64,000 nt of DNA from Leucoraja erinacea (Eukaryota), in the NCBI RefSeq assembly GCF_028641065.1, contig NC_073377.1:73532001-73596000 (forward strand). Direction: 5' to 3'. The translations under genes were made by a program, and so were the position numbers. Shown here one piece after another: positions 56,003-58,470 of this stretch. The notes below the pieces were generated by a model. That model was not told the origin of the DNA. It worked only from the letters and a program-made list of their open reading frames with translations, and did no database searches. Within the stretch, counting starts at the first letter, position 1. Each line of letters opens with the position of its first letter.

Positions 56003-56109
56003 CTGCCCTGATCCAACAGGCAACAACAGTCAAAAACAAGGATATTCGAAAGTTCTTGGACGGTATTTACGTCTCTGAGAAGGGTGCAGTTGTTGAGGCT
56101 TCATCTTAG
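56003..56109 (+). CDS. RPL9: RPL9 terminal coding exon, proximal copy (7a)
   Basis: cttctag|CT GCC...[38 protein letters not shown]; followed by ATTAAA 56119-56124 and donor AAG|gttaga at 56125/56126. Confidence 0.93.
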
Positions 56110-57309
56110 GCATAATGGATTAAAGGTTAGAAAGTGCCTTGTGTCTTCTCCACTGGAGCAGACGATTAGGGTTTGTGTGAAGCAGCTACAACAACCAAAT
56201 GTCATGGTAGACACAAAATGCTGGCGTAACTCAGCGGGTGAGGCAGCATCTCCAGCATTTTGTGTCGATGCTGCCTCGCCCGCTGAGTTACTTCAGCATT
56301 TTGTGTCTACCTGCGATTTAAACCAGCATCTGCAGTTCTTTTTTAAACTAAATGAAATGTATACGTGTTGGTGAGAATTTTTGTTCTAGTAGTTATCGTG
56401 AAATAACAAAGCTTTGAGATACATTAAAAAGCAAATTGGTGCAAGGCGCCAGGTAGTAACAAAAGCACTCCATGAATACTGTCATTAATTGATCTTACAG
56501 TGGGGATATCAATGTGTAGTCTTGAAGGGAATTATTAAGATTTTCACACCTTGATTTTTAGGCCAAATCAAAGCCAGTCTTCCAGAACTGACAAAAGAAA
56601 AACGTGTTCTCGATCCACTAAATCATTTTCAGCTGGAGTGTAGTGCTACACAAATTCTTGATGAAAGTTTTTTTAAATGCCATGAAACAATCTTTTGCCA
56701 AAATGTATTGGAAAATTGTCACTAGCAAAAATAAGCATTTATGAATTTCAGTTGAATGTAGTTTAGTAGAATGTTTTCTGCTTTTGAACAGCTGGGTACC
56801 CAGGTAGATTCCATGGATTCTATGTTACCTTTATTTGAAGCCAATAAGGAACATTTCTGTGTAAAGAATGTCCGAGGGAGTTACTCTTGAAATGTGTAAG
56901 ATAAATCCAAAATTAAAATAAGGGTTGGCCATTTGTCCCTTTGAACCTTATCTGCCATTCAGTGCCATTGCAGCTGATTATCAATCCCAATAGCTTTTTG
57001 TTTCTCTCCCGATAACCTCTGCTAGAAAATTATTCATGTTAAAATACAGACAGTAACTTAGCTTAAATTACCCTCTTGACGTGCATTCTATAGATTTCTC
57101 ACCTTCTCAGTGATTCTTGATTTATTATTTAATGCATAGGGTTTTTCTGGTCATCAAAAGCCATTACCATCTAAGACCTCTCAGTTATGATATTGGTAGG
57201 GGACTTTATGTTGAAATATTGTATCCTAGTCCTTGTCTTTACAAATCATTGGTCTATTAACATATTGTCAACTGCGACAAAATAATCTTTCAGCGAACAC
57301 TTTTGTGAT

Positions 57310-58098
57310 GGAAAGAATTGTAGATGCTGGTTTAAATCGAAGGTAGACAAAATGCTGGAGTGGTCGGAACAAGATAGAATGTAGTCGGAGACAGTAAGAC
57401 TTGTGGGAGAACTGGGAAGGGGGAGGGGTTGGAGAGAGGGAAAGCAAGGGCTATTTGAAGTTAGAGAAGTCAATGTTCATACCGCTGGGGTGTAAGCTAC
57501 TCAAGTGAAATACGAGGTGCTGTTCCTTCAACTTGTGCTGGGCCTCACTCTTGACAATGGAGGATGCCCAGGACAGAAAGGTCAGATTGGGAATGGGAAG
57601 GGGAGTTGAAGTGCTGAGCAACCGGGAGATCAGGTAGGTTAAGGCAGACTGAACAGAGGTGTTCATTGAAACGATCGCCGAGCCTGCGCTTGGTCTTGCC
57701 AATGTACAGAAGTTGACACCTGGAACAGCGAATACGGTAGATGAGGTGGAGGAGGTGCAAGTGAACCTCTGCCTCACCTGGAAAGACTGCTGGGGTCCTT
57801 GGATGGAGTCGAGGGGGCAGGTAAAGAGACAGGTGTTGCCAAATTAGTTGTGGTTGATGAAGTCAGCGAGTTCTGCATGGGTGCAGGAGGCAGCACTGAT
57901 GGAGTCGTCAATGTAGCGAAGGTAGAGTTCAGGGATTGGCCAGTGTACGCCTGGTACAGTGATTGTTCGATGTACTCTATAAAGAGGTAGGCTTTGCTGG
58001 GACCCATGTGAGTGCCCATAGCTACACCTTGGATTTGGAGGAGGGATGAATTGAAGGAGAAGTTATTCATATCCTGGTGGGGGATGGAGGTGTAGAGT
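57310..58098 (-). mobile_element. Penelope-like element fragment between RPL9 exons 7a and 7b
   Basis: GVAMGTHMGPS RT motif and IYRIRCSRCQLLYIGKTKRRLGDRFNEH GIY-YIG on the minus strand. Confidence 0.87.
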
Positions 58099-58363
58099 AT
58101 AATCGCAAAACACTTTTATGATCTTCAGTTTGCACTTTAAAGCTTCTCGTGAAACGATGAGAATGGGTAAGGTGGAGTAAAAATGGGAAAAGTTGAATGT
58201 TGGCTTGATCCTCGCGTAACCTTAAGTGTGACAACATAGAATGCAATGGTATCAGTTGTAAACAGTTTTAAAGATGGGTGTGGTTGAAAATGATAGTTAA
58301 AACGTCACTTTGCTGTTTTGCCCTGGTGCATGTAGATGTGTAATAACTTGTTTCTGCCTTCAG

Positions 58364-58470
58364 CTGCACTCATTCAGCAAGCAACAACAGTGAAGAAGAA
58401 GGATATTCGTAAATTCCTGGATGGCATCTATGTGAGCGACAAAGGCACAGTTGTACCACAGCATGATTAA
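58364..58470 (+). CDS. RPL9: RPL9 terminal coding exon, distal duplicate copy (7b)
   Basis: tttctgccttcag|CT GCA...[38 protein letters not shown]; same length and phase as 7a; ATTAAA 58521-58526. Confidence 0.9.

What the first reader, a model, noticed from the sequence alone, without database searches (positions are those of the whole stretch)
56003..58470. RPL9/uL6 has two intact, anciently duplicated terminal coding exons, predicting two ribosomal protein isoforms
Seen: exon 7a (56003-56109) and 7b (58364-58470) each have a pyrimidine tract plus AG, the same phase, the same 107-nt coding length and a nearby ATTAAA. Over the first 30 full codons, 27 amino acids are identical, yet 19 of those 27 codons differ synonymously (including TCT vs AGC Ser). 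Replacements are few (N/K in KNKDIRKF vs [12 protein letters not shown]) plus a different 4-aa tail (EASS vs PQHD). Established: near-saturated dS with low dN indicates long purifying selection; [12 protein letters not shown] is the conserved uL6 C-terminal signature near the sarcin-ricin loop region. Inference: both exons are translated, so alternative splicing makes two uL6 variants from one gene, a route to ribosome heterogeneity I do not know from mammalian RPL9.
Basis: partly seen in the sequence, partly recalled or inferred. Interest (0 to 1): 0.9.

Follow-up and report, generated by a model that had tools for sequence, protein, structure and literature searches.

The report
Ribosomal protein gene with swappable ends
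This skate's gene for ribosomal protein uL6 (RPL9) carries two intact copies of its last coding exon, and the skate transcripts checked skip the usual first copy and use the second; both versions also occur in other cartilaginous and bony fishes, so the pair likely predates their split and would give fishes two versions of a core ribosome protein.

Summary
The two exons are real and as described, but the wiring differs. 7a is not terminal. A processed retrocopy elsewhere in this genome preserves an mRNA with 7a spliced onto 7b, so 7a is a stop-carrying cassette: included, it gives the usual uL6 (N169) and 7b is 3'UTR; skipped, 7b codes (K169, new tail). In 4 of 4 sequencing runs laid (four studies, contigs), the only joint from exon 6 goes to 7b, so here the second copy dominates. 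RefSeq skate proteins agree. 7a is still intact and matches shark RPL9 at 31 of 34 residues. Both types were retrieved from chimaera, electric ray and several teleosts; paired isoforms are identical over residues 1-158 in 6 of 6 species. An AU test rejects separate duplications in cartilaginous and bony fishes (p=0.0012). Tetrapod proteins show only the N169 type. Databases already annotate X1/X2 isoforms automatically; ten paper searches found no description. It is a new member of a known class (KRAS4A/4B-like C-terminal exon substitution), in a gene class where this is rare. A functional difference between the isoforms is untested, and both residues occur in single-copy uL6 of other animals.

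The parts
47142..47164 (+). Likely non-coding exon 1 with pyrimidine-rich (TOP-like) start, donor GT at 47165
   Evidence: Sequence only; start site inferred
48890..48936 (+). Exon 2, ATG at 48891
   Evidence: AG/GT ends, open frame
49028..49143 (+). Exon 3
53277..53372 (+). Exon 4
   Evidence: its 3' end appears as the loose end in front of exon 5 in three runs
53901..54033 (+). Exon 5
   Evidence: exon 5>6 joint, GT..AG, 4 of 4 runs
54128..54208 (+). Exon 6, last shared exon (to residue 158)
56003..56125 (+). Exon 7a: cassette exon coding residues 159-192 of the usual type (K168-N169-K170, tail EASS), stop at 56107-56109, 16 nt of UTR, donor GT at 56126
   Evidence: retrocopy joint; best PDB sequence match is zebrafish uL6, 7OYA; skipped in 4 of 4 runs
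58364..58540 (+). Exon 7b: terminal exon; codes residues 159-192 (K169, D183, tail PQHD, stop 58468-58470) when 7a is skipped, 3'UTR when 7a is included
   Evidence: (joint 54208>58364 in 4 of 4 runs)
58521..58526 (+). ATTAAA poly(A) signal shared by both forms; tails start at 58535-58540
   Evidence: runs X7, X13; retrocopy tail

Best explanation
The skate RPL9 gene has a tandem-duplicated last coding exon wired as a stop-carrying cassette (7a) ahead of a terminal exon (7b): skipping 7a, the form seen in the skate transcripts checked, makes 7b code for a uL6 with K169 and another tail, while including 7a, as a retrocopy records, gives the usual N169 protein with 7b as 3'UTR, and the pair likely arose before cartilaginous and bony fishes split and is likely kept because both forms are still translated in some tissue or stage. 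Shown: exon anatomy, the 6>7b joint, the fossil 7a>7b joint, both protein types in other fishes. Inferred: one origin in a jawed-vertebrate ancestor, loss of coding 7b in tetrapods, a shift of dominance toward 7b in rajid skates, no NMD of the 7a form (stop only 16 nt before the last junction; 50-nt rule recalled). Untested: that the forms enter ribosomes and differ. My mechanistic guess is that K169 adds a positive charge in the loop between helices 151-164 and 173-176, which I recall facing 28S rRNA near the sarcin-ricin loop, so splicing would mildly tune the factor-binding centre by tissue.
For: Retrocopy L003: 5'-truncated, poly(A) tail, 7-nt target-site duplication, 21 of 243 aligned nt different, 7a joined to 7b at a GT/AG pair. 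Joint 54208>58364 in 4 of 4 runs from four studies, one contig running through exons 5-6-7b. Spliced b form is identical to RefSeq Leucoraja protein P0003. Both types in Callorhinchus (each also under GenBank AFM/AFK accessions), Narcine, Salarias, Neoarius, Gadus, Astyanax, with 158 of 158 shared N-terminal residues in 6 of 6 pairs tested. Six teleost gene models that run the copies together all put the N copy before the K copy (P0001, P0002, P0174, P0202, P0284, and P0192 out of frame). With the defining column removed, an a|b split is not rejected (p-AU 0.32) and a cartilaginous-fish clade is rejected (p-AU 0.0012). 7a equals shark RPL9 (P0262) at 31 of 34 residues; P(no replacement in these 31 codons) if neutral since the retrocopy is 0.014-0.12.
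Against: No spliced 7a in any of the 4 runs laid, and the Leucoraja and Amblyraja RefSeq names carry no isoform suffix, so present use of 7a in this species is unshown. K169 and N169 both occur in uL6 outside jawed vertebrates (hagfish, molluscs, sponge K; lamprey, leech, mosquito N), so the swap may be near-neutral. Net charge of the last-exon peptide rises by 1 in only 4 of 7 pairs. The tree rests on 34 columns and 26 hand-picked rows; the free tree needs 3 label changes and a single split appears in 0% of its bootstrap trees. No tissue, proteomic or structural contact data.
Confidence: 0.62

Rival explanations
1. Rajid skates have recently switched fully to 7b; 7a is a silenced leftover that has not yet decayed, so this species makes one uL6.
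For: 0 of 4 runs show a 7a joint; Leucoraja and Amblyraja RefSeq entries are b type without isoform suffix; no rajid a-type protein among the 120 listed of 1550 hits; the retrocopy predates the present tail (it reads PQSD; Rhinoraja PQSE, Amblyraja PQND, window PQHD).
Against: Contigs drop rare variants; tissues unknown; 7a frame and both splice sites intact, no replacement in 31 codons against shark; Narcine keeps both, and the Rhinoraja b form is named X2, implying another isoform.
Confidence: 0.22
2. Both forms are translated but interchangeable as proteins; the pair persists because splicing is split among tissues, or because 7a inclusion lengthens the 3'UTR (about 190 versus 70 nt) and regulates RPL9 output.
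For: Differences are one loop residue, two conservative changes and a low-confidence tail; both 169 states occur across animals; dominance appears to differ among lineages; splicing of ribosomal protein genes usually tunes amount rather than structure (PMC8047918 passages).
Against: Upstream N and downstream K are kept in every locus whose order I could see (window plus six teleost models), across about 450 My (date recalled).
Confidence: 0.3
3. One reading: 7a and 7b are alternative last exons, each with its own poly(A) site.
For: ATTAAA 10 nt after the 7a stop, followed by GT-rich sequence.
Against: The only record of a 7a transcript (L003) splices on to 7b and is tailed after 7b; tails seen only after 7b.
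Confidence: 0.06
4. Assembly artefact, recent local duplication or pseudo-exon.
For: None beyond the lack of 7a joints.
Against: pS 0.9 with pN 0.07 and unalignable flanks; orthologous pairs in distant fishes; single locus in the genome.
Confidence: 0.01

Closest known systems
Tandem exon duplication-derived substitutions (Martinez Gomez et al., PMC8373072, PMC9741552; passages read)
   Same: Two homologous exons give proteins identical except for one region; ancient; C-terminal swaps are 77 of 236 human events.
   Different: A ribosomal protein gene; 'RPL' occurs 0 times in either main text (supplements not examined); apparently absent from tetrapods, so a human catalogue would miss it.
KRAS exon 4A/4B (PMC9882654, passages read)
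   Same: Two homologous last coding exons, upstream one dated to the jawed-vertebrate ancestor; that 4A is a stop-carrying cassette turning 4B into UTR is recalled, not from the passages.
   Different: That paper derives 4A from NRAS exon 4; here both copies are uL6 exons. KRAS tails have known different functions; none is known here.
RPS24/eS24 C-terminal exon skipping (PMC8047918, passages read)
   Same: Splicing alters the C-terminus of a core ribosomal protein.
   Different: RPS24 changes about three residues by skipping; here a 34-residue structured segment (helix and last strand of the domain) is encoded twice.
Paralogue-based ribosome heterogeneity (RPL3/RPL3L, RPL22/RPL22L1, RPL10/RPL10L; recalled)
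   Same: Two near-identical versions of a core protein under long purifying selection.
   Different: One gene, switched by splicing rather than by transcription of a second gene.

Membership tests
uL6/RPL9 | Pfam PF00347 and two-domain uL6 fold | tested here: met
   PF00347 E 6e-32; model matches vertebrate uL6 chains at TM 0.91-0.93
Tandem exon duplication-derived substitution | Two homologous exons in tandem in one gene | tested here: met
Tandem exon duplication-derived substitution | Isoforms identical except for the homologous region | tested here: met
   158 of 158 shared residues in 6 of 6 species pairs
Tandem exon duplication-derived substitution | Both splice forms transcribed in this species today | tested here: inconclusive
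   b form in 4 of 4 runs; a form only as a retrocopy
Tandem exon duplication-derived substitution | Conserved over long time from one origin | tested here: met
   short alignment, moderate strength
Tandem exon duplication-derived substitution | Both proteins detected | not testable with these tools
   needs proteomics
Strict mutually exclusive exons | Never in the same transcript | tested here: not met
   retrocopy holds 7a then 7b
Alternative last exons with separate poly(A) sites | Upstream exon ends in its own tail | tested here: not met
   only 7a transcript on record splices to 7b; minor use not excluded
Specialised ribosome component | Tissue-biased incorporation with a functional effect | not testable with these tools
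   no tissue labels, no proteomics

The most novel reading that the evidence does not exclude
Jawed fishes have carried a splice switch for about 450 million years that builds two kinds of 60S subunit by swapping the C-terminal, rRNA-facing segment of uL6 in a tissue- or germline-specific way; tetrapods lost it and skates flipped its default. Zebrafish-type models would make splicing-encoded ribosome specialisation testable by deleting one exon.
Probability: 0.25. Interest if true: 0.85.

Novelty: new member of a known kind. Interest (0 to 1): 0.58.

Why it matters
Ribosomal protein genes are held to rarely yield more than one protein by splicing (PMC8047918). This is a clean, ancient counter-example in a structured part of a core protein. 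The two forms share promoter and 158 residues, so one exon deletion tests ribosome specialisation without paralogue-dosage confounders. It also warns that the annotated skate uL6 is not the exon orthologous to the tetrapod C-terminus, which matters for phylogenomics with ribosomal proteins.

Tried and rejected
RNA pairing that might mask 7a (55103-55144 against 56005-56046): 3 of 60 shuffles as stable, best of 10 comparisons, not significant. Mammalian 3'UTR as a decayed 7b: read-through extension of ape processed copies matches the b peptide weakly (p 0.16-0.22); of the other tetrapod extensions one goat model gave p 0.016-0.044 uncorrected, the rest p over 0.6; no support. No run is on record as RNA (20 of 24 rows hold the stretch, 7 studies; 'no RNA holder listed'); I laid 4 of the 20 and take them as RNA because of GT..AG joints and poly(A) ends. 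The cross-run count of joined forms was not given. Metagenome scan gave no vertebrate locus with the last exon (80 kept of 371; only L004 vertebrate-like, a chimera cut at residue 166). Genomic context in other species could not be fetched (contig look-up closed), so exon order elsewhere rests on gene models. Second pseudogene L088 covers only the 5' part. Rfam: 0 hits in the window. Elephant shark cDNA paper (PMC3466250, passages): 'ribosomal' 0 times in the main text; its 4 supplements were unreadable and may bear on tissue of origin. Abascal 2015 (PMC4494069, passages): 'RPL' 0 times. PMC6579518 (passages) gave no contact for residue 169. Ten paper searches (listings only, most subscription papers not covered) showed no description. 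Earlier scan findings: none.

Full report
Observation. The exons lie as stated. Over the first 30 full codons 27 residues agree and 19 of those 27 codons differ synonymously; pS is 0.905 and pN 0.072, and the flanks do not align. The rest of the gene is upstream: exons at 48890-48936, 49028-49143, 53277-53372, 53901-54033 and 54128-54208, all with AG/GT ends. Either copy completes an open 192-residue protein. It is uL6 by Pfam and by fold. The b form is letter for letter RefSeq protein P0003, named Leucoraja erinacea. 7a best matches zebrafish uL6 among solved structures.

Wiring. A search of the own genome found a third match, L003 at C1:117.34 Mb. It is a processed retrocopy: 5'-truncated, poly(A)-tailed, flanked by a 7-nt target-site duplication, with 21 of 243 aligned bases different. 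It holds the end of 7a, 16 nt past the stop, joined to the first base of 7b. The joint matches a donor at 56126 and the 7b acceptor at 58364. In that mRNA 7b is 3'UTR, in frame but behind two stops. The stop lies 16 nt before the last junction, which by the recalled 50-nt rule should escape NMD. Further searches found only this locus, L003 and an old 5' pseudogene (lower bounds).

Expression. Twenty of 24 listed runs, from 7 studies, hold the 7b stretch; none is on record as RNA. I laid 4 of them, one per study, all Logan contigs. Each has one contig running exon 5 > exon 6 > 7b across GT..AG introns (depth 1138, 872, 28, 715), joining 54208 to 58364 and skipping 7a. Tails start at 58535 and 58540 in two runs; one contig runs on past 58700. 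No joint into or out of 7a was listed; 7a was touched only by one unspliced contig of depth 2.8. Contigs drop rare variants, human-like records are filtered and tissues are unknown, so this shows that skipping dominates in these samples, not that inclusion is absent. RefSeq entries for Leucoraja and Amblyraja are b type without an isoform suffix, which by naming convention (my knowledge) means one annotated protein.

Is 7a alive? Its frame and splice sites are intact. It equals shark RPL9 (P0262) at 31 of 34 residues and Narcine X2 at 30. If neutral since the retrocopy formed, 2-4 replacements would be expected in these 31 codons; none is seen (P 0.014-0.12, depending on the assumed per-lineage divergence). 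Very recent silencing is not excluded.

Distribution. Three protein searches (120 listed of 353, 716 and 1550 hits) and two cluster look-ups gave 381 proteins. I picked 76 named rows by hand, plus the two window exons. Among 54 jawed-fish rows, 21 have N169, all 34 residues long with K168 and G185; 33 have K169, 28 of them one residue longer, the four 34-residue ones being skates. K types occur in chimaera, rays, whale shark, sturgeon, paddlefish and many teleost orders. Both types were found in Callorhinchus, Narcine, Salarias, Neoarius, Gadus and Astyanax with residues 1-158 identical in 6 of 6 pairs, and in Cyprinus and Paramormyrops (not compared). In Callorhinchus both stand under GenBank AFM/AFK accessions, which I infer to be the full-length cDNAs of PMC3466250 (passages read; link not verified). 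Six teleost gene models run the two copies together, N copy first. All 15 picked tetrapod rows are N type; in the full census 144 of 148 rows with a tetrapod-style tail are N, 3 are K and 1 is S (the K rows appear to be unnamed metagenome proteins with further changes), and 34 rows lacked the tail. Lampreys are N, hagfish K, invertebrates either. Gar, bichir, coelacanth and lungfish were not among the listed rows, and tetrapod genomes were not searched, so loss in tetrapods is inferred from proteins only.

One origin? On all 78 rows the a/b label needs 2 changes against 21.8 when shuffled; window 7a groups with shark a types and 7b with ray b types, but the label is defined by an aligned column. 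Dropping that column on 26 rows, the label needs 3 changes (8.9 shuffled), a forced a|b split is not rejected (p-AU 0.32), and a forced cartilaginous-fish clade is rejected (p-AU 0.0012). With 34 columns this is moderate support for duplication before the cartilaginous-bony split.

What changes in the protein. In the model (pLDDT 82) the swapped segment covers the end of helix 151-164, loop 165-172, helix 173-176, strand 179-185 and a coil tail with low confidence at the end. N169K lies in the loop. That this loop faces rRNA near the sarcin-ricin loop is recalled; PMC6579518 passages did not give the contact. Since both residues occur across animals, any effect is likely small.

Mechanism and odds. 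Cassette wiring: about 0.93. Both forms used in jawed fishes generally: about 0.9. 7a still used somewhere in this skate: about 0.7. Functional specialisation of the ribosomes: about 0.25-0.3. The best reading is a KRAS4A/4B-like splice switch with lineage-dependent default; rivals are recent fixation on 7b in rajid skates and interchangeable proteins kept by split splicing or UTR control.

Novelty. The class is known (PMC8373072, PMC9741552, PMC4494069, PMC9882654; passages read), and automated annotation already lists X1/X2 isoforms in several fishes. A review says ribosomal protein genes rarely give more than one protein by splicing and names RPS24 as an exception (PMC8047918, passages). 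Ten searches (listings) showed no account of the RPL9 pair; the library lacks most subscription papers and I saw no supplements. Verdict: real, ancient and apparently undescribed; a new member of a known kind; interest 0.58.

Noticed in passing
L003 (G000:C1:117344738-117344968): Processed retrocopy of the RPL9 3' end, a fossil of the 7a+7b mRNA; its b tail reads PQSD, closer to Rhinoraja than to the window.
   Followed up: yes
L088 (G000:C24:18521793-18521978): Old processed pseudogene of the RPL9 5' part (exons 2-5), with a stop; no last exon found.
   Followed up: partly
Callorhinchus proteins: Four of five listed b-type AFM accessions fall in one block (85942-86420) while the five a-type ones lie at 87446-90930; if numbered by library this hints at tissue bias.
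   Followed up: no
window 58540-58700: One run (X3) extends 7b past 58700, suggesting a second, more distal poly(A) site.
   Followed up: no
P0009, P0014, P0192, P0207: Gene models fuse the RPL9 last exons with neighbours (RFC1-like in teleosts; WDR19-like in whale shark): annotation errors caused by the duplicated exon, and a hint of conserved synteny.
   Followed up: partly
window 55103-55144: 42-nt intronic stretch 71% complementary to the start of 7a; not significant against shuffles.
   Followed up: yes
window 56206-56311: SINE-like repeat forming a 45-nt inverted pair 80 nt downstream of the 7a donor, with another arm at 57312-57352; could affect 7a splicing.
   Followed up: no
window 60314-60568: Degenerate reverse-transcriptase fragment (RVT_1, below cutoff).
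   Followed up: partly
P0101, P0179, P0271, P0327: Vertebrate RPL9 sequences deposited under bacterial names, likely host contamination.
   Followed up: no
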